Below are positions 1-44,099 of a stretch of DNA of 64,000 nt, piece by piece. A model generated the notes under the pieces. The model worked only from the letters and a program-made list of their open reading frames with translations. It had not been told where the DNA came from and did not search any database. The DNA comes from a virus. The DNA lies in the IMG/VR virus record IMGVR_UViG_3300034283_000433, positions 4,323-68,322 of that record; one strand, 5' to 3'. The position numbers and the translations under genes were made by a program. Numbering within the stretch: the first letter of the stretch is position 1; each line of letters opens with the position of its first letter.

Positions 1-116
1 CGAATGCTTAATTTGTGGCTTAATAAGCCTTTAGAGCGTTCACCTGTTTGTTGGTTAATTACTCTTCCGTTTAATTCGTCGCTTAACGCTACGATTTCAC
101 CTAATGTCAACTTCAT
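1..116 (-). CDS. Hypothetical protein, truncated by window edge
   Basis: ATG at 116 just after the preceding stop; MKLTLGEIVALSDELNG... open to position 1. Confidence 0.6.
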   Translation of the reverse strand, partial: MKLTLGEIVALSDELNGRVINQQTGERSKGLLSHKLSI

Positions 117-117
117 A

Positions 118-363
118 TTATGATTGGTTTAAATGTTTTTCGTCTACTTCTGCCCAGCGATTGTCTGGACAAGCTCCTTTTACAGGGCTATATATCTTAG
201 CTTTTAACGCGCAACCACACAGCCCACAATGGATAAAAGGAGTAGTGCGCTTATGCTCACATCCTTCGCATATCTGTATTCTTTCTGCTGCTAATACTGA
301 TTGGGCATCGTCTGGATTAAACATTATAGCCCAAGCCTTAAAGATTTCCTCAATTTTAGTCAT
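118..363 (-). CDS. Small Cys-rich (probable Zn-binding) phage protein
   Basis: CxxC...CxxCxC...CP..W pattern; TATATTTG element at 386-393 upstream. Confidence 0.7.
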   Translation of the reverse strand: MTKIEEIFKAWAIMFNPDDAQSVLAAERIQICEGCEHKRTTPFIHCGLCGCALKAKIYSPVKGACPDNRWAEVDEKHLNQS

Positions 364-397
364 CGGTCTTTGCTTTGTTATAGAGCAAATATAAGAA

Positions 398-757
398 TTA
401 TTCCGCTATAGGAGCAGGAGTTTCTTCAGTAATCCAAGGAGCTTTCTTAGTAACTACAAGAGGATTCTTTTGAGTCTCTATTTTAGCATCTAATGCGTTG
501 TCAATAGCAGCCACATCTAAAGTAGCTTCTAACCATTCTACCATAGTAGCTTCTGTTAAGTCATTAAACTCAATGAAAGACTCAGGCTCAGGTAAAGTGA
601 TTGTACAAGCACCATATGTATCAGCTGTATAAGTCTTGTCATCTACTACTTCTGTAGCTTGTTTACGCCAATGAATTACAGATACTACATCTGTCATTGC
701 GTCAATTGAAGGTTTGCAATCTAGGGCTGCAATAACCCATTTTTTTGTATTTGCCAT
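398..757 (-). CDS. Tail-fibre-associated protein (putative assembly factor)
   Basis: 119 aa acidic protein following a fibre gene; FIEFNDLTE..MVEW motif typical of such proteins. Confidence 0.6.
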   Translation of the reverse strand: MANTKKWVIAALDCKPSIDAMTDVVSVIHWRKQATEVVDDKTYTADTYGACTITLPEPESFIEFNDLTEATMVEWLEATLDVAAIDNALDAKIETQKNPLVVTKKAPWITEETPAPIAE

Positions 758-839
758 ATTATTTGTTTATTTTGTTAAAAGACCAATTAGTGTCCAAATT
801 AAAATCATTGAAATAATTGATAATATTTTTGTCTTCATA

Positions 840-2534
840 TTATTTGTTCTTTAAAATATCTATTTCTGCTTTTAATTCTTTTACAACTTCTACTAATAAT
901 CCTACAACTCCATTATAGTTTAATGCTTTTGTTCCGTCATCATTTGGTCTAACTATTTCTGGTATTATTTGCTCAACCTCTTGAGCTATCAATCCAGCGT
1001 CTTCAAGTATATTAGATAAATGCATTCTTGCTGGCGCATTATCCTTCCAAGTGAAAGTATATCCATTTATTTTAGAAATTTTATCTAATGGATTAGATAT
1101 TTTTACTATGTTTTCTTTTAATGTCAAATCAGATAAAGAACCATTTTGTGTTAAAGAGCCATTTATAGTAAGGTTACCACCTCCATACAAGCGCATTTTT
1201 TCATAACAGTTATTTAAATTAGTTGTACTAGAGTCGTGAACAAAAAATCTTAAATCTAATTCCCACCCAGCACCTGCATTTGTTCTACCAGATGCAATTC
1301 CTGATTTATGAGGCCCTACAGAAAACCAATATCCGACTAAATTATCTGTAGTTCCAGAAATTGAATTATATAATTCATATCCCTTTGCTTGAGAATCAAA
1401 GGTAACACTACCACTTGTTATAGTAGAGCCTGTTACATAGTTAGTAATTTGTCCAATTCCATCAGAAGTTCCTACACAAAATTTACCAGCTATATTAATT
1501 CTTGCTCTTTCAGGAGCTCCACTTCCAGTGCTGAATACTAAATGGTTTGTTGCATTTATACCCATATTACCGATAGAGCCACTAGCCACAACTTGATTAG
1601 CCACACCGACATACCCAACAAGATTCCCAGAGTGTGCATATGCTACATATGTTCCATCACTTTTGTCAAAAAGAGCCGACCCATTTACTTCTAAATTATA
1701 TCCAGCAGCTGTAGTTTTGTTTATTAAAACTAATCCAGTACTAGTCAATCTTAATCTTTCTGTATTATCTGTATCAAATGCTAAATAACCTGCTTGGTAG
1801 TTTGTAACTCTATAATTACCGCCAGCCGTTCCACCGAACTCTATATTTCCATTTAATCCTAATAATCCTCCGCCTAGCGTACTTGTAGTATTAATTCTAA
1901 CTAACCCAGCATTTGTAATAGCAAATTTTTCAGCAAATGTAATAGCATTACCAGCTGTACCAGTTCCTGCCGTAGAAAAAGTAAGACCTCCATCTGCACT
2001 AACATTTAATTGAGATGCAGCTTTATTTGTTGTATGATATATATACCCAGTCCCATTAAAATAATTGTTAACGCCAATTTTCATATCAGCATTATTAGTC
2101 TGAAACGCTATATGTTGACCATAACTACCACCTTGAATAGCTATAAATGGTGTCCCCCAAGAACTTGGAGTAGCTCCAACGCCAATATGACCATTGTTTG
2201 TAATTCTCATTCTCTCTAAAGGAGAAGAGCTACCGCCTGGCAAAGTCCAAAAAGTAAGATTGCCATTACCTGTGCTAGTTGATTCATCCCAAGAACGAAT
2301 TCTAGCCATTTCATAATCATTATATCCTCTAAATGATAAATCTAAATATAATGGAGAACCAGATGTTCCAGCTACTCTGTTTGATACAATGGATATGTTG
2401 CCTCCAGAACTTGTACCTATCGCTATGGCAGAACCCTGATTTGATGTTATATTGCTTGTACCTACGCCAACATTTCCGTTATCTAGAACAGTAAATCCAT
2501 TTACAAGTTTACCAAGTTTAAAAGTATTACCCAT
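840..2534 (-). CDS. Tail fibre with C-terminal intramolecular chaperone (peptidase S74-like)
   Basis: ERMRI..G.VGIG repeats; C-terminal SD..LKENI...GLIAQEVE..PE.V...coiled coil. Confidence 0.85.
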   Translation of the reverse strand: MGNTFKLGKLVNGFTVLDNGNVGVGTSNITSNQGSAIAIGTSSGGNISIVSNRVAGTSGSPLYLDLSFRGYNDYEMARIRSWDESTSTGNGNLTFWTLPGGSSSPLERMRITNNGHIGVGATPSSWGTPFIAIQGGSYGQHIAFQTNNADMKIGVNNYFNGTGYIYHTTNKAASQLNVSADGGLTFSTAGTGTAGNAITFAEKFAITNAGLVRINTTSTLGGGLLGLNGNIEFGGTAGGNYRVTNYQAGYLAFDTDNTERLRLTSTGLVLINKTTAAGYNLEVNGSALFDKSDGTYVAYAHSGNLVGYVGVANQVVASGSIGNMGINATNHLVFSTGSGAPERARINIAGKFCVGTSDGIGQITNYVTGSTITSGSVTFDSQAKGYELYNSISGTTDNLVGYWFSVGPHKSGIASGRTNAGAGWELDLRFFVHDSSTTNLNNCYEKMRLYGGGNLTINGSLTQNGSLSDLTLKENIVKISNPLDKISKINGYTFTWKDNAPARMHLSNILEDAGLIAQEVEQIIPEIVRPNDDGTKALNYNGVVGLLVEVVKELKAEIDILKNK

Positions 2535-11083: not shown

Positions 11084-11637
11084 TAGTAACCTATTTTAAG
11101 AGCATCAGAAATATACTTACCTCTATCAAGGCAAGACTGAGAAGCACCAATGTCTCCGTCAATACCAGCCTTCTTAGCTGATTCTTGCTCTATGAATAAT
11201 CTCTGTAAGTCCTTTACGAATTTGTAGTCTTTCTCAAGACCTGTGCTAATAGCCATCTTATTGGCATTAGAGAAGAACGCACTCATAATGTAGCAAATCA
11301 ATACTACAAGTTCTGTCTTAGTATATACGCTACCTGTCTGAGGTGAGCTAGAAGTAAGTGCTAATGTTATATTAAAAGCATAATCCTTGTCTATAAAGGG
11401 CACATTCTTGTCGTCTACGCCACTCAATGTAATGCTGTTTCCTGAAGCAAAAGGCCATACGTATTGGTTATATGTAACACCATTTACCTTTAGATATGTA
11501 CCATCTGATTTAACGATTGTAAGCTTTCTAGAAGAGAATGTATTTGTAGCCTCTACATTATAGGTAGACGTATCAGTCACAATGAACTGACTGCAGTCTG
11601 CTCCTTGGGTAATGCTAATTGAGGTGATAAAAGGCAT
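11083..11637 (-). CDS. Putative virion structural protein
   Basis: Start moved to MPFITS (ATG 11637), just downstream of TATATTTG at 11653-11660. Confidence 0.6.
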   Translation of the reverse strand: MPFITSISITQGADCSQFIVTDTSTYNVEATNTFSSRKLTIVKSDGTYLKVNGVTYNQYVWPFASGNSITLSGVDDKNVPFIDKDYAFNITLALTSSSPQTGSVYTKTELVVLICYIMSAFFSNANKMAISTGLEKDYKFVKDLQRLFIEQESAKKAGIDGDIGASQSCLDRGKYISDALKIGY

Positions 11638-11671
11638 ATTAAAACGTTTACGCAAATATACCTAAAAACTC

Positions 11672-17600: not shown

Positions 17601-18511
17601 CCGACAACAGCAGGTGATAACATTTGGCCTAATCCAGGGATTGCGCCTACAGTTATACCCGTAGCAATGTCTGGCATAACGCCACCCATCATAGAAGCTG
17701 TTTCTGCGAATGCTCCACGTCTTTCCATACCAACAGTGCCTAAATCTTTATCCATTGGTCTGTCAATATATCTTGTCTTATTAGGCTTTCCAGCCTCTCC
17801 TATAGTAGGTATTTGAACTCTCTTGCTACCTTTCATAAACGAAATCTGCTCGTCTTTGTCCATCATATCAAAGTCAGCTACCTGAGAATTTGCATTTAGT
17901 GTATTTTGTACACCATCTATAAAGTTGGCAATAGTGCCATCTATAACATTCTTAAGTACAGGGAATCCTTTGTCATCTTTAGCAATACGTAATTCTCCTT
18001 TCTTAAATCTAGATAAAAAATCCTCTTTCTTTTGAGCTACGAATACGTCTCTCATTGGCATATCAGCAGGAAGCTGATTAGCATATAATTTAGCCTGATT
18101 GTCTATAGCTATCAATGCATTTTCGTATGTATTAATATTAGCCTTAGACTTCTCAAGTACGATTCCTTTTGGCTTTTCTCCTGTAACCTCTTTAGCTTTT
18201 ACAACAGGCTTAACAGCTTCTACTCTAGGCTTCATTTCAGCCATAGCAGCAGCTTCTACATCTTTCATTGAAAATGCAGGTTTAGCCTCTTGTTTAGCTT
18301 GTTCTTTTTGTACGGGAAGTTGACCAGCCCTTGCAGCTTTAAATAATGGCTGTACAGATGGAGCACCCTTCTTTAAGGTATTCAAATAGTTTGCTCTAAG
18401 TAATTCGCTTACACTAGAGTATCCAGTTCTTCTATCTTTTGGATTAGTAGGGCCTTGACTATTGCCTTCGCTATTGTAATCAACGGTTTCGTCTGTAGTA
18501 TTTTCAGCCAT
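11672..18511 (-). CDS. Large internal virion/ejection (polyvalent-type) protein with zincin HExxH motif
   Basis: 2279 aa, helical; IFHEGAH...SEAIVE; third of three ejection-like genes after the nozzle. Confidence 0.7.
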   Translation of the reverse strand: MAENTTDETVDYNSEGNSQGPTNPKDRRTGYSSVSELLRANYLNTLKKGAPSVQPLFKAARAGQLPVQKEQAKQEAKPAFSMKDVEAAAMAEMKPRVEAVKPVVKAKEVTGEKPKGIVLEKSKANINTYENALIAIDNQAKLYANQLPADMPMRDVFVAQKKEDFLSRFKKGELRIAKDDKGFPVLKNVIDGTIANFIDGVQNTLNANSQVADFDMMDKDEQISFMKGSKRVQIPTIGEAGKPNKTRYIDRPMDKDLGTVGMERRGAFAETASMMGGVMPDIATGITVGAIPGLGQMLSPAVVGAVQGKRQQFDSMNQAFQKAKQSGLSDDDAYEVATNFWNSKVPLLTGAAEGAVSQYLGNKVLNKFADLAPARDLKSFGQATKAFLKDAASNGKELALSGFLDGAVAYSMEKVRGGSDDSAEEQFKAEFLTQLGFAAIGGAVSVPKYVKSYAYNAISNLDNQTIYNNMVAMEQTGLVPEGTAKKAVDDVNKFRDTKAKVMVSNQDAVPTVAGLTMKAEALQEQIKNTPETNISALNALNTELEQVNERISRAQASDDPLTEEVDDKTGLNIKNKQYATTISEGQESTATSSISQYQGTQGIQNQASNETDNRYSAFGSKTQQQKIVIDAQNAATSTIDRPRSLIDGVINRAANVVSALKSIKPNLKIAVIPTVQEYGNTLLQQELDNGETVSKQRERDLRGSNGAFDPENDIIYLNAENIAKKAKTSTIFHEGAHPIINIIAEQNSEAVGTLYNQLRDLSETLDGVNGVLAFGDGYSIYGDDTVKSEAIVEFIARVADGQIELPVDQPTVMQNILDVIRGFLDIIGLGTDINSLDDIKSIAAKIKEAFQTGKEIIIVSETSGSATEAGITSDTIVINAGNIKPTERGPNKEGLNLEIAERNFDEKNLKFIDISDIDGANAFIFAADKAVSAFVKSPSGYVHEFNGGVGYSYQDGTGVWAFTTKAAAQKFLNRAKASDGVGLIMSQKEEGITGSYDFYGYMIGEFYNAIDKGVAEKDLAKYLDSKLDTNVKKGQTFRQLLASKGKKTSIESIADLENLMPIEGPSKFSYDQRGGFTKKVFSAFTEKNFGIPRLETALDISNDPLVKSAEYGDIVAAIQIDKNSPIVDTRTDNRFKNHPSYPFVVTGTPIGIFNKFYDVRDIAPSFIPASKEANQTPLGQRGKPQAAKSAMGAQPIIAVRKQLALQQEGGTRKSAKQTAKENARTEADAAASFAYNINAKKRAQESIEKTGLISNIKNKYKNIKLGGIENQTTLINLLRNKGEAGTVAESLLTTSRGFGAQSALISEDLTEAVYGGLSDKNDIEILGSKTSEVELLNQIISARRIVAIQNMIEDKFNELQAMRAQMKKLRSKAKKEALQVRIDATVEYLQGRKVLGRKYNPQTQTTTEYLQNYQVGSTVDATGKKVADNAGFAKKRIELLQKEIDNVAMFDGATFEDLNNRADKMFNTFKKLMDEKLENGIASKEQHEFYTKYDYVPITYIEKILQEENPEYARVVSKNPNQLRKAVLTGGAEGDILTDYENVFQVFAAGHYKSISNNRAALGLVKFAESIPDNGMIQIVNPLVDDEGEVRLDMEGNPVYPKAPEGKSYIFYYEDGQKKALLADNEITKQWNAKYRQSDEINTLANITFASLAQKIFTGKNPGFGIFQMIALDPITAAVATNVFAPSVPVAYAQIALGGVDKVGWRGSIQQVIKRGDKYRLAAKWGAFTEMNAGKELESSLLSKDVVDGDNYEKLINNASKYSSKPVEFIDKLIDATGLGKVSDVTEKATRLIIFDRARVVFTEKFAKENGRQPNTSEMNDIYAKAAHEARRSSDFARGGSIIKPASRLIIYLNSTVRTGVSVTDQIKKNPGRAAYQLAEMLSIGGMLTAYSAGVLNMAWEDEEEKKKKKAAWDALSEYQKLNYLNIYVGGNVPERAFVKVPLPPVYKNFWVAGMMGFESKVNNAIYSKADYVGAIANANPFGDITEIPAKLPPGAAAMMAYNNLDLFTKRQLVKDEADIPDSIEGATDEAVSTFYKKVGSATGLSPARMQAAGQKIYGQPERNPLIYIPKIAFETAIELASGAPVSIKNDIEKDWKGAIFNGLSLQKRMFSGTPNYYKSLIEGDLLEIEHLRSKAFGALLANKKGSQEEYDNYNKQIENKFAEIIKTLEPVKKDYPSLYSKLVTLSSDKRGGIAGNISKSVSADMKRKYIQKNYDQNVYQAYIINDAKIRAKYIFDQASDMDAKEKSNYFGLLYNLGLMNADNPTGIEYMKLAQPKNK
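16630..16779 (-). CDS. Nested out-of-frame small basic protein (49 aa)
   Basis: Hand-translated MPLQSAKGKKAQQQAVSANIRELKASKTKRPMKQIIAIALSAARRNNKK; A-rich leader; resembles a common stand-alone phage peptide family. Confidence 0.7.
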   Translation of the reverse strand: MPLQSAKGKKAQQQAVSANIRELKASKTKRPMKQIIAIALSAARRNNKK

Positions 18512-20502: not shown

Positions 20503-23500
20503 TTATCTATTATTTAAAGGTTGTTGTATTCCTAATTCTACGTAGTACAAATCTACTAAACTTTGCGGATTTACTGGCTTTAAGTTTAATTCAACCCAGC
20601 TACCTTTCAAAGGCCTTCCGTTTAGTAATCCTCCTGGGCTTAACATATCTCTCTTAAATGCAGCGTGATACTTGTCGTCTTTAATTCTAAAGTCAGACTG
20701 TACAAGCTGTGATTGTTGAGCCATATTAGTATTTACATCCCCTTGCGTAGGAGCAACCCAAGTAGTATTGCCTAATGTAGTTATAGTATTGTAATGCTTT
20801 TTGATGCTTTGACCATCATTGAAAATAATCTTTATACTAGGGCTTTTCTGTTCTTCATAGAAGTTAGCATAGTTAGTAGTATTGTTATGCACCCATAGCT
20901 CCCCATTTTTCCAAGTAATAATCAAATTACCAACAGAGTCTATCCACTCTGGGAAGTAGTCATAAAACGCACTATATGCGTTTCTAGTCTCAGAGAATCC
21001 AAATGTATAGTCTGGCAGTACAGTTGAGCTACCTTGCATAGCTGTAATGTACTCCTCTTCAAATAAGTCATACACTCCTAAAATCTTTGCATACCCTCCG
21101 TTACCAAACTTATCTGGGTAGTCTGTTTTTTGATATTTAGCTATCTTATCTGTAAAGAAAAAGTGTGCTTTATATAATTCAGTTATAGAAGTAATTCCAT
21201 CATTAGACAGTCTAATCTGAGCACCTAAAACAGGGTCTATAAAATAGTCAGCAATAGGCGAAGAAGCTAAAGAACAATACTGCTCTCCTATGCCATACTC
21301 ACCTTTATAGTACTGAATCTTATTTACGATTTCTGAGCTTTGAGAAACAACGCTATTACCATCTGCTGTTTGTAGCATATTTTGAAGGATAGGTACTACT
21401 CCACACGCTCTATTTTGGAATACTCTTAGTTGATTATCCCTTAATTTAAATCTTTGTATATCACCCTTTTGTCTGTCGTACTCATCAAGATTTTCTGGTA
21501 AAAACTTATTTGTATTGTTTATACTTGTACTACTTTGATACTCAAGAGAATATCTTATAGTCGTTGGAAAATATGTTTCTCTTGCATACTCATCTTCTAC
21601 AAATGTTCTTCCATTACCATCTAGCTTAGACTCATACTTATCAGATATAGACATATCTATAATTGAATGTCCGTTACTTCTTAGTCTTGAATAAACATCG
21701 CCTTTATACAAATAGTATTGAGCAGCCTGTGCAGGTGTAGCTTGACCAGGGTTCTGTATTACTTGATTTTTAAGAGAACCTTCGTGTACTAAATTTCCGT
21801 TAGCATCTGTTATGATATTGTAATTTTCTCCAAACTCATAATAAACTTGGTCGCTATAAGACGAATTGGTAAATGGCTTATACGCTTCAATATAGTATAT
21901 AACAGAGTTGTTTGGGTTTGTAGGCCAAGTACTCATAAATGCACTTGTATTATCGTACTGAATCTTAATCCAATAACCTGGTGTTTTAGTTCCGTCTGTA
22001 CTCTCTGTTAATACTTCAATAATTGGAACTTCATAGCCATTATAGGTAGATTGTCCAAAAGCTCCGTGTATGATGACTCTATCCCCTTTTGTATATTCAT
22101 AAATAGGGAATCCAGCATTATTCTGATTATAAGCCAATATGTTCATATAAGCATAAGTAGAATCCTTATAAACGAAATTTGTAGTAGCCCACACAAAATT
22201 GCTATTTGTCAAGTTCTTTGTTCTTACAAATGAAAATGATTTAGCCCAAGATGGTGGCTTATGAGAAATATTAAATTTAATTCTAGGGTATGGTATTATT
22301 GGGTCTGTACCTAAGCCTAAAGTTGTAACAGATAAGCTAGGTGTCATAAACCTCATTTCTGTATTTGTAACAACTCCGTTTGTAACACCAAACTCATCAA
22401 AGTATACTAAGCCAAACTTGTATAAAGAAGAATGCTTGTAAATTGAAATATTGGTATCTGGTATAGCATCAGGATTAATCAACGTTACAGTAGCTGTACC
22501 TGTTACAGACCATTGTAATGTATTGGCTGTAAATGGATAAACTATAGTAAATCCATTTGTTATAGCATCTGTATTTAATTCCGACTCGTTGCCTATTATA
22601 CCAGAAAAATAAGTAATAACATCATTTATTGTTTTCCCAGTCGTTACTGTATAAGAATAAGAATAGTTCTTAGTAGTAGCAACAGGGATTCCTCCAGTAC
22701 CTGTTAAATAAAACAATCTAACTGTCATCGCTATTATGTCACCAACGGCAGGTATACCAGTGAATGTAAATGACCACGCTGAACCATTACTTTTACCTGT
22801 AACAACTAAAGGATTAGAAGGCTTTACAGTATCTATAGTCTTAGATATAGAAAGTGTTTCACTAAAAGTATTACCCTCTGTAATTCCTCCGTAAGCTAAA
22901 ACATTACCATTTAATAACTCCTGTGTATTTGCTTTTTTAGGCACATAATCAAACAGCTGTGTGCTATCAGATAATCCGACAATAGAATACAATTGGTCGT
23001 TATAGAAATTATAAACGCTAGTTGAATTATCTGGAATAGAGTTCTTTGCCTTGTCTATAACAGTAGCAAGCATTCTATCAGAGAATACAGATGCTACACT
23101 CTCTCTTACAGATATTTCAATCTTAGTTACATCTCTCTGCCCTGTCTTGTAAAATACGTTTATTGCGTTGTTTACCGCAGCTGTAGATAGCGTTATATCC
23201 GTAACTCCTGGAGGAGGCACAAGCGCACTCCAAGGGCCCCAAGTAGATTTTGTATCATCTCTATAAACCCATCTATAACTAAATTGGAATAACTTACTAG
23301 CTAGGTTATTTGAAGTAGAACTAGGCTCTGTAGCATAGTTGCATACAGGAGCTAATCCAGGTACTTTTCTACTAACAGTCAGGTATTCTTTTTTCCAGTT
23401 ACTTCCGTATACATTAGCAGCTATTCTATTAGTTCCTGCTGGTCTATCTAAACCAGTATCCTTTATGTTTATTTTCATTGGTCTATTCTTCCTGTCTGTC

Positions 23501-23748
23501 CAATGAAGCACATCTCCGTCTTGTTCTGTTCTATATAATATATTTACTGAGGCTACTGGGAACTTTGGGTCAAACTCAAATAAGTCCTCTTGGCTGTCTA
23601 TAAAAGAAATAAGCAAAGGCTCAATAACGTTTGTCTTAAGATTGTATACATATATGCCATTATAACCAGCAGAGTTGTAATTAAAATAAAACACCCTGTG
23701 CTTTAATTCGTCATAATGAGACCCTATGCATTGATTGGTAGAAGCCAT
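20503..23748 (-). CDS. Tail nozzle/stabilization protein, apparently lacking its N-terminal ~60 aa
   Basis: 1081 aa; WTDRKNRPMKINI, FQFSYRWVY.D, YKFGLVYFDEFG, RLSNDGIT.I motifs. Confidence 0.8.
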   Translation of the reverse strand: MASTNQCIGSHYDELKHRVFYFNYNSAGYNGIYVYNLKTNVIEPLLISFIDSQEDLFEFDPKFPVASVNILYRTEQDGDVLHWTDRKNRPMKINIKDTGLDRPAGTNRIAANVYGSNWKKEYLTVSRKVPGLAPVCNYATEPSSTSNNLASKLFQFSYRWVYRDDTKSTWGPWSALVPPPGVTDITLSTAAVNNAINVFYKTGQRDVTKIEISVRESVASVFSDRMLATVIDKAKNSIPDNSTSVYNFYNDQLYSIVGLSDSTQLFDYVPKKANTQELLNGNVLAYGGITEGNTFSETLSISKTIDTVKPSNPLVVTGKSNGSAWSFTFTGIPAVGDIIAMTVRLFYLTGTGGIPVATTKNYSYSYTVTTGKTINDVITYFSGIIGNESELNTDAITNGFTIVYPFTANTLQWSVTGTATVTLINPDAIPDTNISIYKHSSLYKFGLVYFDEFGVTNGVVTNTEMRFMTPSLSVTTLGLGTDPIIPYPRIKFNISHKPPSWAKSFSFVRTKNLTNSNFVWATTNFVYKDSTYAYMNILAYNQNNAGFPIYEYTKGDRVIIHGAFGQSTYNGYEVPIIEVLTESTDGTKTPGYWIKIQYDNTSAFMSTWPTNPNNSVIYYIEAYKPFTNSSYSDQVYYEFGENYNIITDANGNLVHEGSLKNQVIQNPGQATPAQAAQYYLYKGDVYSRLRSNGHSIIDMSISDKYESKLDGNGRTFVEDEYARETYFPTTIRYSLEYQSSTSINNTNKFLPENLDEYDRQKGDIQRFKLRDNQLRVFQNRACGVVPILQNMLQTADGNSVVSQSSEIVNKIQYYKGEYGIGEQYCSLASSPIADYFIDPVLGAQIRLSNDGITSITELYKAHFFFTDKIAKYQKTDYPDKFGNGGYAKILGVYDLFEEEYITAMQGSSTVLPDYTFGFSETRNAYSAFYDYFPEWIDSVGNLIITWKNGELWVHNNTTNYANFYEEQKSPSIKIIFNDGQSIKKHYNTITTLGNTTWVAPTQGDVNTNMAQQSQLVQSDFRIKDDKYHAAFKRDMLSPGGLLNGRPLKGSWVELNLKPVNPQSLVDLYYVELGIQQPLNNR

Positions 23749-23751
23749 TTA

Positions 23752-23991
23752 TTAAACTGTTTTAAATCTTAATGTTATAAAGTTAGAACAATATTGCGTA
23801 AGTGATTGAATCTTAATCTGATATGCAGTATCTGGAACGTCAGTATATTGTTTTGGAGTCCCTGTAACGAATGCTTGAGCAGTCTTTTCCCACCCAGAAA
23901 CTAATGCACCAGCATTGTCTAACGCAGTAAGTGTAAAGTTACCTGTATCTAGACCCTGAGTTGTTATTGTAATGCTGACTGTTTGTGCCAT
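23752..23991 (-). CDS. Small beta-rich virion-associated protein
   Basis: 79 aa with own TATCTTTG element at 24016-24023. Confidence 0.6.
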   Translation of the reverse strand: MAQTVSITITTQGLDTGNFTLTALDNAGALVSGWEKTAQAFVTGTPKQYTDVPDTAYQIKIQSLTQYCSNFITLRFKTV

Positions 23992-24073
23992 ATTTTCTAC
24001 CGAATTTTAATTGCTCAAAGATACGATTTTATGATATTAGATAAATTGCAAGGAATATACTGAAAATGCCTAA

Positions 24074-24673
24074 TTAATCATTCATTTTAAACAGAATCAT
24101 ACACTTATCATTATAATGGGGATATCCTTCTTGGCAATTTTCATTAATCAAATATATTGGGTTTAAATAAAACGGCTCAATCATAAGATTTATACATTTC
24201 CATCCCCCATCCTGTATGTCTGGATTCATATTCCAACGTGTAAATGATGTAGCTAAAAGATACTTGCTACCACTATTTCTTATGTTAGCTATTGCTTTAT
24301 GTACATTTTCATTTGTTAAATGTCCTAGACAATCTCTAACAAAAACTAAGTCAACTTTAGGTAATTCATCAGTTGTTAAATCTAATGTTCTAAAATCTAT
24401 ATTTGGATAAGATTGCTTATTAGATATTATTAATTTTTCTACTATATCTGCACCTATATAAGAAACACTGGATAAATCAACTTTTTTCATCCAATTCCAG
24501 TCTCCGCAAGGTATGTCTAGCATAGATTTTATATCAAATTTTTGAAACAAATAAGGTAGTTCATTCCTTATTAATTCTGTATTCTTTAACTCAGAACCAA
24601 TTCCACTTGAACTTTCAGAAGAAGTCCATAAATTATTTTCATAAATATCTGTAAATGTTTCTTTTATACTCAT
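24074..24673 (-). CDS. Class I SAM-dependent methyltransferase
   Basis: SG.GS, MLDIPCGD.NWM, YIGADIV, DL..VRDCL.HL motifs; ATG 24673 overlaps GT stop (ATGA). Confidence 0.85.
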   Translation of the reverse strand: MSIKETFTDIYENNLWTSSESSSGIGSELKNTELIRNELPYLFQKFDIKSMLDIPCGDWNWMKKVDLSSVSYIGADIVEKLIISNKQSYPNIDFRTLDLTTDELPKVDLVFVRDCLGHLTNENVHKAIANIRNSGSKYLLATSFTRWNMNPDIQDGGWKCINLMIEPFYLNPIYLINENCQEGYPHYNDKCMILFKMND

Positions 24674-25596
24674 ATTAATATTGTTTTTTTGGCTGTTTCT
24701 TGTACTTGCATCCAATAGTAGTAGGATGCTCTATTTTGGTCTATGTGTAAATCATCCCAATATGGAAGTTTATTTGCGTAAGAAGACTTGAAGAATAATC
24801 CGCTATTGCTATTGGTTACTCCTGCATTATGTAATATCCAATACTTGTCAATAACCTCAATACTATCCGTACTCCATCCAAACCCAAGTCTTTTATCAAC
24901 CTCTGTAGGATGGCCAAATAACCAAGCATTCCAAAGTAAAGCCCACATACCAGCAGTCCATTTTTGTATGGGGTAGTCATTTGGGAATTTCTCTATATAA
25001 CTACCTTCTACAGCGCAAAAGTATTGATATAACTTTATAGAATCTTTTTCTACTTTGTCCCAAAAATCAGCACCTTCTCCTTTAACTATATATTGAGCCC
25101 CTCCAGAGTGGTTTTTCATTAACTTAGGTATTTGCTTGTCTATACCTATTATTTCGCACATAGCTTCATATATATCATTACCCTTGTGTTGTATGTAGTC
25201 ATAATTTATATATGAATTAGTATCACTCATATACCAAGTGCCAGGTGTCATATACCAGTCTAATTCTGGAGGCCTAGTAAATACTATATCACAATCGTGT
25301 AAGAATAAGTATTTATTTTTTAATTCAGGGAATGCAGTTAGATGATGTTTCATTAAATTGAAGTATACAGATGGAATATAGCTATTAGGCTGTCTAGTAT
25401 CTTCATAGAAATAAAAACCTACAGGAGCATAATGATTTTTTAGTTTTACCCAATCTTCTGGTATATATCCTCCATTAATTGAGCATAAAATATCTATTTG
25501 ATTTGGGTCAATACCATTTTTTATAAAATTATTTATAAGTACTTCTATCTGCCATCTATAATAGTCGTTGGCAGGCTGTGCGCATATATATCTCAT
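24670..25596 (-). CDS. GT-A fold glycosyltransferase resembling peptide O-glycosyltransferases (GT95/GT96)
   Basis: YYRWQ, LFLHDCDIVFTRP (DxD), KWTAGMWA, ILHNAG motifs. Confidence 0.7.
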   Translation of the reverse strand: MRYICAQPANDYYRWQIEVLINNFIKNGIDPNQIDILCSINGGYIPEDWVKLKNHYAPVGFYFYEDTRQPNSYIPSVYFNLMKHHLTAFPELKNKYLFLHDCDIVFTRPPELDWYMTPGTWYMSDTNSYINYDYIQHKGNDIYEAMCEIIGIDKQIPKLMKNHSGGAQYIVKGEGADFWDKVEKDSIKLYQYFCAVEGSYIEKFPNDYPIQKWTAGMWALLWNAWLFGHPTEVDKRLGFGWSTDSIEVIDKYWILHNAGVTNSNSGLFFKSSYANKLPYWDDLHIDQNRASYYYWMQVQETAKKTILI

Positions 25597-25619
25597 ATTA
25601 TTGGTTTACTTTTTAACAA

Positions 25620-28160
25620 TTAACATCCTGCTGCTGTTGCGCAAGATATAAAAGAAGTAGAACTCATTATTATTGCTGGGCTACCACTTTGGAATCTACT
25701 TCCAACTGTATAAGCAAAACCTGTAGGAGTAGCTGGTCTATAGTATCTTATAGGATTTGCACTAAAACCTACTGGAAATGCACCATATTTTTGCTCTCCA
25801 GTTGCAACACAAGAGCCATTATCACACATATATTCTGTCATAAAAAATATATCATAAGGAGCAGCCGTTGTGGTGGTAGTTGTAGTAGTGGTAGTAGTTG
25901 TGGTACATCCAGCATTTATAGACCTTATTTTAGACCTTCCTTCTGTATCTTTTACTACAACAAATCTTGTAGAATTTCCAGGTTGATTATTATAAAATTT
26001 ACTACCAGAAACAGCTTCAAATGAACCACTAATTGCAGCAGACTCTGAATCGTATGTAGTTGTACTAGCTAAGTAACTTCCATTACCACCTGTAAATCCA
26101 CTTATTGTAATATCTTGGAATGAACCATCACAAACAGAACTAATACTGCAATTAACAGGAGCCAATGTGGTAGTAGTTGTTGTATATCCACAATCAGGTG
26201 AATTAGATGAATAAAATCCTCCAGCCTGAAACGCATTATAAGTTGTAGAACAAGGATTTGTATCTATTTGTTCGTAATGTTTATTTACATCTACGCATCT
26301 CCAATAAGTATTTATATCTCTATTTACCCAAACAGGGTCTGTATTAGGTGCTGTTTGTGAAGGGTTTGTAGCATACGTCGTAGTTCCTGCAATCCATTGA
26401 TTACCAAAGAAACAAGTATTCGTATTTTTATAAACAGGCGTAGATGTTACACCTGAATTACAAGTATAAATATATCCAACAAGTTCAGTATAGCTTGCAT
26501 TAAAGTTAAATGTTTGTCCTATTTGTTTAGGAGTACTTATACTACCAGAAACTATTTTTATATATCTAGTTCCATTTGGTTGGTTATTATAATTATAAGT
26601 ACTAGCTGGAGTTGTAGAAACAGCACCAGCCATAGCAGCTCCTGCATCAGCATAAGTTGTTAAAGAAGCATAATAATTAGTACCATCACCTCCAGCAAAG
26701 TTATTCACTGTGATATTCTGCGTTCCTGAACTAGTACAAACAGAACTAGTGCTAGCTGTTATTGGAGGAAGAGTAGTTGTTGTAGTAGTAGGGCAAACTC
26801 CAACAGTAAATGATTTTGCAATCTTATTAAATGTATTAGCCCTATCTCTTACAGCAACCCAATATGTACCTGCAGCTAATCCAGTATATGTTCTAGTAAA
26901 TTCTACATTAGTAAAACTTCCGTCTCTTGCAGCTTGCTCTGTAGAATATGTAATATTACTAGGAGTTGCATCATACGTACCTAATCCACCAGTAAATGAT
27001 AATATAGTAATTTGGCCATCTGATTCACCACTATTAGCACATCCAGCACTTCCACCAAAATTAACAGGAGCTGGAGTTGTTGTACTCGTAGTTGTTGTCG
27101 TAGTTGTAGTAGTTGTTCCGCAACTTATATTAGGATATTTAGTACTTCCATAACTTAATGAAGTTCCAATACCTACTGTTAATATATAATTAGAATCAGG
27201 TAAGTTAGAGAATGTAACTCCACTTCCTTGATTAAATGGCCCTAATGTAGTTCTTTGGCCATTAGATATATTTATAATTGTAGCATAGTAATTTAAATAC
27301 GTTCCACCATCTGCATTTGCAACAATTATCTGACCAGACCCAGGGCCTGCAAGACAAGCTGTCGTAAATGTATACGTTACCATAGGTATTGTAGTAGTCG
27401 TAGTTATTGTTTGACATCCAGTTCCACCTATGCTTTGTATAGGATAATTAGGTGAAGGAAGTGCTGTAGGAGATATACTCTGTATATAATAATTTCTTTG
27501 TGTAACAGGACTATAAACACTCTGATTAACAGTGAATGTATCTTGGAAATAGTTAGTTGATGTAACTATAGAATTGCTTGTACAATCGTATATATAATAC
27601 CACTCTTGTGGAGGAGCAGTTGTTGTGCTAGTAGTACTTGTTGTAGTACAATTAGAATTAACTGATTTAACTACTGGAGTAGTGCCACTTCCATCTCTTA
27701 CTGCTACAAATCTAGCTGTAGTGCCAGCTTGATTATCATAAACCTTTGCACCATTACTAACAGCTACAAATGTGCCGTTTAAGGCAGCAAATTCTGTATC
27801 ATAAGTAGTTGTGCTAGCTTGATAATTACCATCTCCACCTGTAATGCTATTTATAGTGACATCCTGATATATGCCATCACAAACAGAAAGAATATTAAAA
27901 TTAACTGCAGTTGTTAAAGCTATTGTACCACTTAAAGCACAGTTAGGCGTAAATACTATATTACCAGAAAAATTACAATCGTTTTTAATTAAACTTGAGT
28001 TTGTAACCATTGAATTACCTCTGATAGCTGTAAAGTGCATATCAGGAGCATTACCCTTAAAAACGCCATTTCTAGCCTCTTTATGATGAGTGCTAGGGAA
28101 TATATCATTGGAATCATCCAAGTTCATAATCCCCTGAAATGTCTTTCTTTGTGTACTCAT
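25620..28160 (-). CDS. Thr-run (mucin-like) protein with SprB-like repeats and nozzle-type N-terminal peptide
   Basis: Six Cys-initiated, Pro-terminated Thr runs; ~5 repeats such as C...DGQITI..FTGG.GTY...YTGLAAGTYWVAVRD. Confidence 0.8.
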   Translation of the reverse strand: MSTQRKTFQGIMNLDDSNDIFPSTHHKEARNGVFKGNAPDMHFTAIRGNSMVTNSSLIKNDCNFSGNIVFTPNCALSGTIALTTAVNFNILSVCDGIYQDVTINSITGGDGNYQASTTTYDTEFAALNGTFVAVSNGAKVYDNQAGTTARFVAVRDGSGTTPVVKSVNSNCTTTSTTSTTTAPPQEWYYIYDCTSNSIVTSTNYFQDTFTVNQSVYSPVTQRNYYIQSISPTALPSPNYPIQSIGGTGCQTITTTTTIPMVTYTFTTACLAGPGSGQIIVANADGGTYLNYYATIINISNGQRTTLGPFNQGSGVTFSNLPDSNYILTVGIGTSLSYGSTKYPNISCGTTTTTTTTTTSTTTPAPVNFGGSAGCANSGESDGQITILSFTGGLGTYDATPSNITYSTEQAARDGSFTNVEFTRTYTGLAAGTYWVAVRDRANTFNKIAKSFTVGVCPTTTTTTLPPITASTSSVCTSSGTQNITVNNFAGGDGTNYYASLTTYADAGAAMAGAVSTTPASTYNYNNQPNGTRYIKIVSGSISTPKQIGQTFNFNASYTELVGYIYTCNSGVTSTPVYKNTNTCFFGNQWIAGTTTYATNPSQTAPNTDPVWVNRDINTYWRCVDVNKHYEQIDTNPCSTTYNAFQAGGFYSSNSPDCGYTTTTTTLAPVNCSISSVCDGSFQDITISGFTGGNGSYLASTTTYDSESAAISGSFEAVSGSKFYNNQPGNSTRFVVVKDTEGRSKIRSINAGCTTTTTTTTTTTTTAAPYDIFFMTEYMCDNGSCVATGEQKYGAFPVGFSANPIRYYRPATPTGFAYTVGSRFQSGSPAIIMSSTSFISCATAAGC

Positions 28161-28161
28161 C

Positions 28162-28353
28162 TTAAGGTCTGTCTATGGTTTTTAAATTGCTATTGGTTAC
28201 TTTGCTATTTCCTTTTACTGACTGAAATTTAATAAGACCGCCATTGCCTCTAAAAACACCATTTCTAGCCTCTTTGTGGTGAAAGCTAGGCATCGTGTCT
28301 TTTGGGTCATCTAAGTTCATAAAGCCACTTATTGTCTTCTTTTCAGTTCTCAT
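28162..28353 (-). CDS. 63-aa paralogue of the N-terminus of the 846-aa protein
   Basis: 34 of 57 residues identical to the start of 25620..28160; tightly packed between neighbours. Confidence 0.8.
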   Translation of the reverse strand: MRTEKKTISGFMNLDDPKDTMPSFHHKEARNGVFRGNGGLIKFQSVKGNSKVTNSNLKTIDRP

Positions 28354-28354
28354 A

Positions 28355-29125
28355 TTATGCTCTTACTACCAATTTTTGACCAAGTCTAATTACTTCGTTT
28401 GCCTCTGGCAAAGAGAATGTATTCTCACGAAGGTTAGCTAATCTTTTTTGGTTGTAGTATTCTTTTCTACGTAATTGCTTATCTCCTAAACTTGCACGTC
28501 TACCCAAAGGTAAATGCTCAATATCTTTCCAAGCTATAAAAGCTAAAACAGCTTCTCTAATTTGAACTGGTATTTTGTAGTCTACATCGTCAGCAGGAGA
28601 AGACAAGTATTCTAATACCACATAGTCGTGGCTATATTCGTTATCAAGATATAATATACCTTGCTCCTCGTCAATATCAAAAGAACCTGCGCCATTTAAA
28701 ACAGCACCTGCTCCAAATATATTTACATATCTAGCTCCGTCAAAATAGTTTACAAAAGCTAAGTCTTGTAGTCTATAGGTATTACCTGTTGTATTATCTG
28801 TATTGCTGTCAGTTCTATCTGCTTGGTTGATTTTATAAGAAGATAGGTTTCTGTTTCTTTTCAAGGTAGCAACTTCTCCGTCTGCGTTAAATACGCCTAC
28901 TTTAGAAAAGCCAATATAATCAGAAGGCAATGTAACAGTCTTGTTTGCATTAACTACCAACTTAGCTGTTTTAGGTGTGGAATATACATCCATCCCCATT
29001 TCTTCTACGCCACGAACTCCTACAGTCCATAATCTACGATACTCAGCATTAGTCTGTTTAGACTGGTCTAAGTATTGGTAAATTACTTCTGATAAAGGAA
29101 CCCATTTTGCTGTATCTTTTGCCAT
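28355..29125 (-). CDS. Tail ring/adaptor structural protein
   Basis: LPSDYI and VVLEYLS motifs; position between capsid and nozzle. Confidence 0.65.
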   Translation of the reverse strand: MAKDTAKWVPLSEVIYQYLDQSKQTNAEYRRLWTVGVRGVEEMGMDVYSTPKTAKLVVNANKTVTLPSDYIGFSKVGVFNADGEVATLKRNRNLSSYKINQADRTDSNTDNTTGNTYRLQDLAFVNYFDGARYVNIFGAGAVLNGAGSFDIDEEQGILYLDNEYSHDYVVLEYLSSPADDVDYKIPVQIREAVLAFIAWKDIEHLPLGRRASLGDKQLRRKEYYNQKRLANLRENTFSLPEANEVIRLGQKLVVRA

Positions 29126-29131
29126 TTTTTA

Positions 29132-29755
29132 TTATATTTTATCTAGTGCATCATTTGTTGAATCTTGAGGCGTAGCCTTTCTAGGTCTAAGCTGATTCAT
29201 TACTAAATTGATGATGTCTGTAATATATTCTTGAGGTACGTTAATTTCTGCATCTAAATCAGAAGTCTCTGTACTTACCATTCTTACTATTGCAAATCTA
29301 CCAACTAAATTGGTATAACTCTTAAACCAAAGCTTTTTTCCTTCTACCCAATAAAATATTTTACTAGGAGGCTGCTTTAAATTATCCATATAGTCTAACT
29401 CTCTTGGAGAAACAGGTATTGGTGATTTAGCCAAGCCTGTACTAGTAGGGAATGTAACTGTAGATATACCATATCCTCTAGATAATCCAAGTGGAACTTG
29501 AGGTAAATCTAAAGAGTAGTATCCTGTATCGTTATCTTTTGTAATAGCTAAGTTTTTAAATGTCGCATAAAAAGAATCTGCAACAGTCTCTATACCATCT
29601 AGCTTAATAGCATCAGTATAGTTTACTTTAGCCATATAAGCTATAGCTTCGTTAATATATAGATTAATTTCTTTCTCTGTTATATTAGCATCGTCAGTAG
29701 GTATGCCTCCGTAAAGCATACGTCTTATTTGCTCTATCAAAACTCTTCTAGTCAT
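29132..29755 (-). CDS. Tail ring/adaptor structural protein
   Basis: 207 aa; synteny with adjacent ring genes. Confidence 0.6.
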   Translation of the reverse strand: MTRRVLIEQIRRMLYGGIPTDDANITEKEINLYINEAIAYMAKVNYTDAIKLDGIETVADSFYATFKNLAITKDNDTGYYSLDLPQVPLGLSRGYGISTVTFPTSTGLAKSPIPVSPRELDYMDNLKQPPSKIFYWVEGKKLWFKSYTNLVGRFAIVRMVSTETSDLDAEINVPQEYITDIINLVMNQLRPRKATPQDSTNDALDKI

Positions 29756-30450: not shown

Positions 30451-30476
30451 AAAAAAGCCCCTATAGAAATAGGGGC
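30451..30476 (-). terminator. Intrinsic terminator with UUUCUA loop
   Basis: GCCCCTA-TTTCTA-TAGGGGC followed by T6 on - strand. Confidence 0.8.
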
Positions 30477-43944: not shown

Positions 43945-44003
43945 TGCGCGCGCGTATGTACGCGTGTGTATGTGTGCGCGTGTACGTGTATGCGCACGTA
44001 TGC
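43945..44003. other. 59-bp strictly alternating pyrimidine-purine tract
   Basis: TGCGCGCGCGTATGTACGCGTGTG...GTATGC checked base by base. Confidence 0.9.
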
Positions 44004-44099
44004 CTGCGCGCTATATCCTTATACCACAGCTGTAAAAAATCTTTTAACAAAACCTTAACTAGGCTGTTGATTGCGGTATCAAAACTATTTTGCAGTTTT

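What the first reader, a model, noticed from the sequence alone, without database searches (positions are those of the whole stretch)
20503..28353. Nozzle gene apparently split, with two alternative N-terminal plug-in peptides
Seen: the 63-aa ORF and the first 57 aa of the 846-aa Thr-rich protein share 34/57 residues (G.MNLDD...HHKEARNGVF.GN...GNS.VTNS). The nozzle 4.4 kb downstream begins abruptly at STNQCIGSHYDE. From recalled family knowledge, related stabilization proteins start with an F..GMN.D...A.N...GN segment directly followed by CIG...D. Inferred: the missing N-terminal strands are supplied in trans, either bare or carrying a ~790-aa appendage. This would be a strand-complementation display system setting how many adhesins decorate the nozzle.
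Basis: partly seen in the sequence, partly recalled or inferred. Interest (0 to 1): 0.8.

Follow-up and report, generated by a model that had tools for sequence, protein, structure and literature searches.

The report
Split phage nozzle with plug-in peptides
In this uncultured lake phage the first 60 residues of the tail-tip "muzzle" protein are encoded apart from the rest, once as a bare 63-residue peptide and once as the head of a long fibre-like protein, so the tail tip is probably completed by snapping in either a blank or a fibre-carrying plug.

Summary
The 63-aa ORF and the start of the 846-aa ORF share 34 of 57 residues (E 7e-22). The 1081-aa ORF is a crassvirus muzzle protein (Pfam) that starts exactly where single-chain relatives continue after this same peptide: of 120 listed homologues, 51 carry the peptide in one chain, 68 start like ours and 1 is a fragment.

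The split arose once. Among 28 non-identical split loci, every one keeps at least one peptide copy: 18 have blank plus fusion, 6 fusion only, 4 blank only.

The blank peptide gene is under purifying selection, and 69 of 71 clusters end at the same place.

A complex prediction places the peptide against the muzzle's first blade and C-terminal strands (score 0.82, best control 0.00).

Trans-complementation is well supported by sequence comparison and prediction. Control of fibre number by the blank peptide is inference.

The closest precedent is the split nozzle of Pseudomonas phage A1002 (PMC13730344). This scan has noted muzzle genes split at other positions on other DNA. I rate it a new variant of a known kind.

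The parts
28162..28353 (-). Gene for the free ('blank') 63-aa plug peptide, homologous to residues 1-60 of single-chain muzzle proteins
   Evidence: Peptide HMM E 3e-26. Start lies 1 nt after the stop of the upstream gene; TAA stop lies 1 nt before the next ATG. Pairwise pN 0.00-0.27 against pS 0.08-0.99. 69 of 71 database clusters end at the same place.
25620..28160 (-). 846-aa fusion protein: residues 1-57 (window 27990-28160) are the second copy of the plug peptide. They are followed by short Cys-containing repeats, beta-sandwich modules and poly-Thr linkers (presumed fibre or adhesin).
   Evidence: 34/57 identity to the free peptide. Peptide HMM E 3.4e-22. 16 clusters of such peptide-stalk fusions, 158-1134 aa, among 1.84 billion representatives. 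AF2 model poor overall (pLDDT 41.9); two modules look FN3-like at Z 7-9.
24670..25596 (-). 308-aa protein of PHROG 4417 (function unknown, possible glycosyltransferase); a lineage-specific insert between fusion gene and p79
   Evidence: PHROG E 1.6e-67. A homologue is present in only 4 of 27 loci with a fusion.
24074..24715 (-). 213-aa methyltransferase; a lineage-specific insert
   Evidence: PHROG 3382 E 2e-54. Pfam methyltransferase domains fall below cut-off.
23752..23991 (-). 79-aa protein (p79) that travels with the fusion gene
   Evidence: p79 is present in 24 of 24 non-identical split loci that have a fusion, and in 0 of 4 that lack one. No family hit.
20503..23748 (-). Muzzle (nozzle) protein lacking its N-terminal strands (deltaN-MUZ), 1081 aa
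   Evidence: Pfam crAss_MUZ 49.7 bits and crAss_MUZ_C 36.6 bits, cut-off 27 for both. Homologues. An unsplit relative folds like crAss001 gp44, Z 32.5.
28355..29125 (-). 256-aa virion structural protein. In unsplit relatives it directly precedes the muzzle gene, so it marks the left edge of the split interval.
   Evidence: PHROG 13977 E 5.3e-21. Gene order.
29132..29755 (-). 207-aa tail ring protein-like gene (context)
   Evidence: Pfam CrAss_Ring_2 E 1.1e-4, 22.4 bits, below the cut-off of 27.

Best explanation
The window belongs to an uncultured freshwater crAss-like podophage (68-kb record). Its hexameric tail-tip muzzle protein, a relative of T7-type nozzles, is encoded in pieces. Ancestrally the first ~60 residues (five short beta-strands) were the N-terminus of the muzzle. 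They pack against the first propeller blade and the C-terminal strands, forming what I take to be the platform or 'ring-joining' domain that seats the hexamer on the 12-mer tail ring. In one clade the gene was cut in the loop after these strands. The strands are now made as separate products of the same tightly packed gene row: a bare 62-63-aa peptide, and a paralogous copy at the N-terminus of a variable Cys-rich, bead-like protein (846 aa here). Either product inserts its strands non-covalently into a deltaN-muzzle subunit. This completes the fold, and in the fused case also mounts an appendage at the ring-muzzle junction. Shown here: the homology, the single origin, the conservation of both forms, and that natural genomes manage with either form alone. 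Predicted only: the binding pose. Inferred: that in genomes with both forms the six sites are shared between blanks and loaded plugs, so that fewer than six long fibres are mounted, and that the appendage is a host-binding fibre.
For: (1) Homology and a precise cut. The peptide aligns to residues 1-60 of one-chain muzzles, and deltaN-MUZ starts at the next conserved motif.
(2) Single origin. The split clade is monophyletic and nested among unsplit forms (SH-aLRT 100 for 11 rows; 98 for 19 rows).
(3) Of 31 split loci with both flanks, 28 have non-identical muzzles: 16 have one blank + fusion + p79; 2 have two blanks + fusion + p79; 6 have fusion only + p79; 4 have blank only. So 28 of 28 keep at least one peptide. 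Blank-only arose twice.
(4) The blank is a real gene. pN is 0.00-0.27 against pS 0.08-0.99, and omega is 0.00-0.35 where computable. There are 73 clusters in 5.8 billion proteins; of the 71 printed, 53 are 61-63 aa, 16 are the same ORF called from Met-12, and 69 end at the same place.
(5) The two forms are old paralogues, not gene-converted copies. Blank-to-blank identity across genomes has median 73%; blank-to-fused in the same genome has median 55%, the same as across genomes.
(6) In all 68 representative hits the peptide sits at residues 1-~60 of the protein, except one row that had no matched stretch.
(7) Structure. In cis, in an unsplit relative, the peptide has pLDDT 82-92 and five strands. 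Alone, at the head of the fusion, its pLDDT is 30-39. In trans it scores ipSAE 0.82 (median of 3 runs) against a best control of 0.00; partner pLDDT is at least 55 (85 in two runs) and at least 63% of contacts are shared between runs. The calibration mark was reached by 58 of 80 solved complexes and 2 of 110 mismatched pairs. The peptide contacts MUZ residues 1-5 and 23-50, and 859-865, 897, 919-931, 945-978 and 1050-1076. Replacing the C-terminal MUZ piece gives 0.00.
(8) All 17 split-clade peptides have an aromatic residue at position 43 and Gly at 32, where 9 of 9 unsplit ones have Ala/Ile and Val/Ile. The muzzle side of the predicted interface also carries clade-specific changes at 952, 1053 and 1055.
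(9) The blank co-occurs with long fusions (445-1068 aa) in 18 of 18 loci and with short ones (208-210 aa) in 0 of 6.
Against: There is no physical evidence: no virion proteomics, no structure and no cultured host. Solved muzzle and nozzle structures exist (7QOK/7QOL and others), so the pass may reflect likeness to known folds rather than binding of this copy. I tested only the bare peptide in the complex job, not the fused one. The fused copies have their own conserved signature (positions 35-45), which could mean a different site or affinity. The link between blanks and long fibres rests on about two independent lineages. That the appendage binds the host is inferred from variability and beta-sandwich modules only; the model is poor (pLDDT 41.9) and the fold matches lie in the range of common arrangements (Z 7-9). 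That the peptide is the 'ring-joining domain' of crAss001 gp44 is inferred. The paper's text gives no residue limits for that domain, and I could not see its figures or supplements.
Confidence: 0.65

Rival explanations
1. Only the bare peptide completes the muzzle. The fused copy has been re-purposed: it docks the fibre at another place (ring protein, neighbouring subunit, capsid) or acts as a competitor or assembly regulator rather than as a structural plug.
For: The fused copies carry their own conserved signature at positions 35-45 and are only 47-58% identical to the blank of the same genome. Both forms have been kept apart for a long time. Only the blank was tested in the complex prediction.
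Against: Six non-identical loci have a fusion as their only peptide source and still have a deltaN-muzzle, so a fused peptide can evidently do the job. However, those fusions carry a blank-like or intermediate peptide signature. Fused copies keep the positions that are invariant in all classes (M12, L14, D15, A29, N31, F34, G36, N37, G48, N49), and they share the derived aromatic residue at position 43.
Confidence: 0.15
2. The pieces are re-joined: by RNA splicing (intron), ribosomal bypass or frameshift, or protein trans-splicing, so that a normal one-chain muzzle is made.
For: crAss-like phages are known to carry introns (recalled, not checked here).
Against: Each piece has its own ATG and TAA. 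Two or three peptide copies per genome do not fit a simple intron. In blank-only genomes the peptide stop is followed by a 13- or 26-nt AT-rich spacer and a new ATG. There are 0 Rfam matches in the window. The one contig of an RNA library that covers the place (28075-28416) is collinear with the DNA, and the only joints found lie inside the poly-Thr repeats. That library may hold DNA, and its cover is partial. No intein-like family was found.
Confidence: 0.03
3. The 63-aa ORF is a dead remnant of recombination at a fibre-swapping hotspot, or the split is an assembly error.
For: Short duplicated N-terminal fragments are common next to swapped receptor-binding genes (general knowledge).
Against: The ORF is under purifying selection with saturated synonymous sites in most pairs. 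69 of 71 clusters end at the same place. The architecture is present in 28 non-identical loci from two collections. Contigs of independent runs bridge both junctions. Blank-only genomes have no other source of the strands.
Confidence: 0.02

Closest known systems
Muzzle protein gp44 of Bacteroides phage crAss001 (PDB 7QOK/7QOL; Pfam PF25731 + PF25729; Bayfield et al. 2023, PMC10172136 - passages found by term search)
   Same: Same family by Pfam. An unsplit relative (47-48% identical to the window's protein) matches 7qol_P with Foldseek E 2e-36 and VIA Z 32.5, rmsd 5.5 A, 844 aligned, model 1..1149 on chain 3..1371. It is the last gene of the ring-protein row. The paper describes a hexamer with a ring-joining domain and a seven-bladed propeller like the T7 nozzle, seated on a 12-mer ring.
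   Different: gp44 is one chain. Here the N-terminal ~60 residues are separate gene products, in two versions. crAss001 mounts its fibres on collar hub proteins at rings 1-2 (paper text), not on the muzzle.
Split nozzle of Pseudomonas podophage A1002: nozzle-rope gp39 plus nozzle-base gp42 (Pang et al. 2026, PMC13730344 - abstract and section 9 read)
   Same: A podophage nozzle built from two polypeptides, in which strands of one protein fill the truncated platform and propeller of the other. The detached piece also carries the fibre-docking part.
   Different: It is a different phage group, and no sequence comparison was made here. In A1002 the complementing part is the C-terminal ~150 residues of gp39 (platform-C plus two incomplete blades). 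Here it is the N-terminal 60 residues only. A1002 has one complementing protein; here there are two or three paralogous ones, including a bare 'blank', and lineages with only one kind.
Receptor-binding proteins with a conserved N-terminal anchor and swappable distal part (e.g. T7 gp17-type fibres, Klebsiella phage tailspikes; PMC12692247 seen as a search listing and abstract start only)
   Same: A conserved ~60-aa N-terminus is followed by highly variable distal modules: 16 clusters, 158-1134 aa.
   Different: The anchor here is not an autonomous docking domain. It is homologous to, and replaces, an integral part of the nozzle's own fold. An unloaded copy is encoded alongside.
Other split muzzle genes noted by this scan on other genomes (e1-6013169, e1-5911798, e1-5844247, e1-5947088, e1-5848780, e1-6080517, e1-5924338, e1-5354345; AI notes, not checked here)
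   Same: crAss-like muzzle genes cut into two or three ORFs, with adhesin-type modules at the break.
   Different: As far as the short notes tell, those cuts carry larger muzzle pieces extended by display domains. None mentions a bare 60-aa piece duplicated as a blank and a loaded version. No look-alike of this window's proteins was on record.

Membership tests
Crassvirus muzzle protein (PF25731/PF25729; crAss001 gp44) | Pfam models matched above the gathering score | tested here: met
   crAss_MUZ 49.7 bits (residues 717-948 on model 1010-1223) and crAss_MUZ_C 36.6 bits (959-1034), cut-off 27 for both.
Crassvirus muzzle protein (PF25731/PF25729; crAss001 gp44) | Fold of gp44 (propeller, Ig-like domains, crass domain) | tested here: met
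   Tested on an unsplit homologue, P0090, not on the window's protein itself: AF2 pLDDT 82.4; 7qol_P E 2e-36; Z 32.5, 844 aligned.
Crassvirus muzzle protein (PF25731/PF25729; crAss001 gp44) | One chain that includes the N-terminal strands | tested here: not met
   The ORF starts at the CIG motif after two stop codons. The strands are encoded 4.4 kb upstream. It is therefore a member of the family in split form.
Crassvirus muzzle protein (PF25731/PF25729; crAss001 gp44) | Hexamer closing the tail below a 12-mer ring | not testable with these tools
   Needs virions. Only the gene order after ring-like genes is seen; the Ring_2 match is below cut-off (22.4 against 27).
Split nozzle (A1002 type) | The part missing from one nozzle gene is encoded by another gene of the same phage | tested here: met
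   The peptide HMM built from one-chain muzzles hits the 63-aa ORF (E 3e-26) and the 846-aa ORF (E 3e-22) and nothing else in the record.
Split nozzle (A1002 type) | The two products assemble by beta-strand complementation | tested here: inconclusive
   Prediction only: 0.82 against best control 0.00. The mark was reached by 58 of 80 solved complexes and 2 of 110 mismatched pairs, and the result may come from likeness to solved nozzles.
Split nozzle (A1002 type) | Same cut and same complementing domains as gp39/gp42 | tested here: not met
   In A1002 the complementing part is platform-C plus propeller-C at the C-terminus of gp39 (paper section 9). Here it is the N-terminal 60 residues. Homology to gp39/gp42 was not tested.
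Receptor-binding protein with N-terminal anchor | Conserved N-terminus, variable distal part | tested here: met
   16 clusters of peptide-stalk fusions, 158-1134 aa. Fusions of 208-1068 aa in 24 non-identical loci.
Receptor-binding protein with N-terminal anchor | Binds a host receptor | not testable with these tools
   No family hit. The Atlas lead to SprB-repeat clusters scores 0.79-0.83, below the level to trust. FN3-like modules score Z 7-9.

The most novel reading that the evidence does not exclude
The plug peptides are not interchangeable fillers. They are paralogues that occupy fixed, alternating positions around the hexamer. Genomes with one, two or three peptide genes (all seen) would then build tail tips of six-fold, three-fold or two-fold order: for example three fibres alternating with three blanks. 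If so, the phage encodes the valency and symmetry of its tail-tip adhesins in the number of 60-residue microgenes. The peptide would also be a natural, portable tag that mounts any protein on an essential tail part.
Probability: 0.15. Interest if true: 0.85.

Novelty: new variant of a known kind. Interest (0 to 1): 0.66.

Why it matters
It shows a route by which a podophage gains and exchanges tail-tip appendages: an essential nozzle protein is cut at a domain border and the detached strands become the mounting tag. The natural series offers a ready-made experiment on how fibre number is set. It comprises one-chain, blank only, loaded only, blank plus loaded, and two blanks plus loaded. The 62-63-aa gene is also a clear case of a conserved, functional microprotein that routine annotation leaves nameless ("hypothetical protein" wherever a source names it). 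A 60-residue tag that completes the fold of its partner could serve as a display handle. The phages are uncultured, so all this remains to be tested. My searches of the held library found a split nozzle in print only for phage A1002, and nothing on split crass-type muzzles.

Tried and rejected
- The search for related loci with the single protein found no relative in viral contigs; an alignment was needed.
- PHROG scan of the two peptide stretches at E up to 10: 0 families.
- PDB sequence search with an unsplit muzzle: 0 hits; relatives appear only by fold.
- tblastn of the peptide against 50,697 deposited phage records: no match. The muzzle finds only Flavobacterium, Cellulophaga, Tenacibaculum and Maribacter phages and one unclassified Caudoviricetes record, all below 60% identity (25-27% in the 25 rows listed; 87 records, none covering 80%). 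So no cultured member of the clade was found there.
- Rfam on the whole window: 0 matches. tRNA scan: 0. Promoter-like sites are not above shuffles (45 against a mean of 51). One clean terminator-like hairpin lies at 30476-30457.
- The non-peptide part of the 846-aa protein was not found in five records of the unsplit sister clade; the tool warns that an empty answer shows nothing.
- The Atlas pointed to viral SprB-repeat clusters (0.79-0.83), but Pfam at E up to 1 gives no SprB hit in 9 fusions. I dropped this as a claim.
- AF2 of the 846-aa protein is poor (mean pLDDT 41.9). The FN3-like matches (Z 7-9) are in the range the tool calls common.
- The p79 profile gives only E 0.3-9 hits outside its own family; I rejected these.
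- RNA evidence: libraries X19 and X18 cover only parts of the stretch (21 and 22 of 30 bins) and may contain DNA. No contig joins the peptide to the muzzle. This does not prove absence of splicing.
- Earlier-findings look-ups by place and by sequence returned nothing.
Full report
**1. Observation**

Late genes lie on the minus strand of a 35% GC window. The gene row reads, in order:
- a 207-aa ring-like protein;
- a 256-aa structural protein (PHROG 13977);
- a 63-aa ORF (28353..28162);
- an 846-aa ORF (28160..25620);
- a 308-aa protein (PHROG 4417);
- a 213-aa methyltransferase;
- a 79-aa ORF (p79);
- a 1081-aa ORF (23748..20503).

The genes are packed tightly. The 63-aa ORF starts 1 nt after the preceding stop. 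Its TAA is 1 nt from the next ATG. The 1081-aa ORF follows two TAA codons. The 63-aa ORF and residues 1-57 of the 846-aa ORF share 34 of 57 residues without gaps (E 7e-22).

**2. Identity of the large protein**

The 1081-aa ORF matches Pfam crAss_MUZ (49.7 bits) and crAss_MUZ_C (36.6 bits), cut-off 27 for both. PHROG 14478 aligns it only from profile position 59 of 1474.

An AlphaFold2 model of a one-chain relative (P0090, 1154 aa, mean pLDDT 82.4) matches the crAss001 muzzle. Foldseek gives 7qol_P at E 2e-36. VIA gives Z 32.5, rmsd 5.5 A, 844 aligned, model 1..1149 on chain 3..1371. It also matches podophage nozzles from their first residues: P22 gp10 at Z 22.2 and T7-type nozzles at Z 17.7-17.9.

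According to Bayfield et al. (PMC10172136; passages found), gp44 is a hexamer. It has a ring-joining domain and a seven-bladed propeller like the T7 nozzle, and it sits on a 12-mer ring.

**3. The missing N-terminus**

Of the 120 best homologues listed from 5.8 billion proteins (413 passed E 0.001):
- 51 (1138-1177 aa, about 47% identical) begin with the peptide, four of them as called from its Met-12, and continue directly into the C-I-G motif;
- 68 start at that motif like the window's protein;
- 1 is a fragment.

An HMM of the one-chain N-termini hits exactly two ORFs in the window: the 63-aa ORF (E 3e-26) and the 846-aa ORF (E 3e-22). A profile of the free peptides (A2) finds only these same two places in the whole 68,322-bp record.

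**4. Comparative anatomy**

I fetched 32 loci from IMG/VR and 55 from metagenomes.

In one-chain relatives the 256-aa gene is followed at once by the muzzle gene, for example in L006, L007, L009-L013, L019 and L020.

Thirty-one loci have a muzzle that starts at the motif and also retain the 256-aa gene, so the interval between the two is complete. Three of them have muzzles identical to another locus, which leaves 28. Their architectures are:

| Architecture | Loci |
|---|---|
| One bare peptide + peptide-fusion + p79 | 16 |
| Two bare peptides + fusion + p79 | 2 (L003, L053) |
| Fusion only + p79, no bare peptide | 6 (L005, L008, L014, L015, L048, L060; fusions 208-210 aa) |
| Bare peptide only, then the muzzle gene after a 13- or 26-nt AT-rich spacer | 4 (L018, L059, L040, L070; spacers read in L040 and L018) |

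Every locus (28 of 28) keeps at least one copy of the peptide. p79 goes with the fusion: 24 of 24 with a fusion, 0 of 4 without.

The split clade is monophyletic and nested among one-chain forms (SH-aLRT 100 for 11 rows; 98 for 19 rows; both quick trees). Bare-only genomes arose twice. Fusion-only genomes sit at two places in the tree.

**5. The bare peptide is a gene**

Between loci, pN is 0.00-0.27 and pS is 0.08-0.99. Omega is 0.00-0.35 in the pairs where dS could be computed.

A profile search restricted to proteins of 34-111 aa found 73 clusters. Of the 71 I printed:
- 53 are 61-63 aa;
- 16 are 51-52 aa (the same ORF called from Met-12);
- 2 are odd;
- 69 end at the same place.

Among 1.84 billion representatives, 68 proteins match. 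In all rows with a matched stretch, the peptide lies at residues 1 to about 60. By my classification:
- 45 continue as muzzle;
- 16 continue as a Cys-repeat stalk with variable distal parts (158-1134 aa);
- 1 is the bare-peptide cluster;
- the rest are fragments and one doubtful row.

Contigs of independent lake-water runs bridge both junctions. The stretch is held to half or more of its words by 17 runs.

**6. Two old paralogues**

Bare peptides of different genomes are 60-100% identical (median 73%). A bare and a fused copy of the same genome are 47-58% identical (median 55%), the same as across genomes. So there is no gene conversion, and each form has its own conserved signature at positions 35-45.

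Both forms share derived states against the one-chain forms. Gly replaces Val/Ile at position 32, and an aromatic residue replaces Ala/Ile at position 43 (17 of 17 against 0 of 9). The sole peptide of fusion-only genomes is bare-like or intermediate.

**7. Does it fit in trans?**

The peptide behaves differently in different contexts:
- In cis it is confidently folded, with five strands and pLDDT 82-92.
- At the head of the 846-aa protein modelled alone, its pLDDT is 30-39. That alignment was shallow.

The complex job used muzzle residues 1-330, muzzle residues 690-1081 and the bare peptide, each with alignments. It scored 0.82 (median of three runs: 0.77, 0.82, 0.83) against a best control of 0.00. 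Partner pLDDT was at least 55, and the runs agreed in at least 63% of contacts. The calibration mark was reached by 58 of 80 solved complexes and 2 of 110 mismatched pairs.

The peptide touches the first propeller blade (residues 1-5, 23-50) and the C-terminal strands (859-865, 897, 919-931, 945-978, 1050-1076). Replacing the C-terminal piece abolishes the score. So the peptide and the C-terminal strands form one sheet domain, which I equate with the platform or ring-joining domain; that equation is an inference. On the muzzle side, positions 952, 1053 and 1055 differ between split and most one-chain forms.

Caveat: solved muzzles and nozzles exist, so the pass may show likeness of fold rather than binding of this copy.

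**8. The appendage**

After the peptide, the fusions carry 12-13-residue repeats, each with one Cys, and then very different Cys-rich modules. The window's protein adds five poly-Thr linkers.

No family is matched. Two better-modelled modules look FN3-like (Z 7-9), which is weak evidence. Reading the appendage as a host-binding fibre is inference from its position, modularity and variability.

**9. Mechanism proposed**

An essential nozzle protein was cut in the loop between its N-terminal platform strands and blade 1. The strands are now delivered by small or large carriers that complete each of the six subunits.

Nature provides genomes with only blanks and genomes with only loaded plugs, so either form appears sufficient. 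Blanks accompany long fusions (18 of 18) and never short ones (0 of 6). This suggests that blanks fill sites that long fibres leave free or cannot all occupy. The pattern rests on few independent events. I hold this step at roughly even odds.

**10. Rivals**

- Re-joining by splicing or bypass is unlikely. Each piece has its own start and stop, there are several peptide copies per genome, Rfam gives no hit, and a contig from an RNA library is collinear with the DNA.
- A dead remnant or an assembly artefact is contradicted by selection and recurrence.
- A re-purposed fused copy that docks elsewhere remains possible. I did not test the fused peptide in a complex.

**11. What is known**

The nearest precedent is the split nozzle of Pseudomonas phage A1002. 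There, gp39 supplies platform and blade strands to a truncated gp42 and also carries the fibre docks (PMC13730344; abstract and section 9 read). The cut, the polarity and the phage group differ, and A1002 has no blank version.

My searches found no paper on split crass-type muzzles. The Crassvirales review mentions the muzzle only as one protein (passages).

This scan has already noted muzzle genes split at other positions in other genomes. It has also noted a poly-Thr protein next to a sugar-transferase-like enzyme inside a split muzzle gene of a 64-kb aquatic phage (e1-5873153). Those are unchecked AI notes.

**12. Verdict**

The finding is a new variant of a known kind. Nothing here is measured physically.

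Noticed in passing
window 24074-25596 (-), with 25620-28160: A 308-aa PHROG-4417 protein and a methyltransferase sit between the fusion gene and p79 only in the window's own lineage (4 of 27 loci with a fusion: window, L035, L036, L037). Runs of six or more Thr/Ser occur in the fusions of 3 of these 4 loci and in 0 of the other 23. This fits an earlier scan note (e1-5873153) that the enzyme may glycosylate poly-Thr linkers. No enzyme family was matched here.
   Followed up: partly
window 26161-27088 and 26792-27088: Contigs of run X5 (DNA) and X19 (RNA library) join across parts of the fusion gene between poly-Thr linkers. The X5 joint skips 926 nt with 5 letters between, a net 921 nt, which is in frame. 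These could be module-number variants of the fibre or assembly collapse at repeats; the flanking sides are only 20-24 letters.
   Followed up: no
window 23992-24073: This is the only sizeable non-coding gap in the row (82 nt, before p79). It contains a TAnnTTTG-like motif, recalled as the Bacteroidota -7 promoter element, so p79 and the muzzle gene might have their own promoter (sequence). The sigma-70 scan is not informative for such hosts.
   Followed up: no
window 30457-30476 (-): A clean terminator-like hairpin (8 pairs, 5 GC, T-run) lies just upstream of the 226-aa gene. It probably marks the start of the transcription unit that holds the ring genes, the peptides and the muzzle gene.
   Followed up: no
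window 11672-18511 (-): A 2279-aa ORF lies downstream of the muzzle module. Homologous positions in related loci hold ORFs of about 1900-2660 aa. I did not analyse it.
   Followed up: no
window 11083-11655 (-) and equivalents in L001, L002, L004, L005, L014, L015: ORFs of 182-191 aa after the giant gene give repeated but non-significant hits to the p79 profile (E 0.3-2.2). A distant beta-sandwich relationship is possible.
   Followed up: no
L003 6816-7201; L053 4526-4904: Two tandem bare-peptide genes lie in one genome; the two copies in L003 are 68% identical to each other. Several pairs of peptide clusters also share the same longest contig in the big database. So three peptide genes per genome is a recurrent state.
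   Followed up: partly
window 44000-46000: AT skew changes sign near 44 kb and GC skew flattens. This is the switch from the minus-strand late module to plus-strand genes.
   Followed up: no
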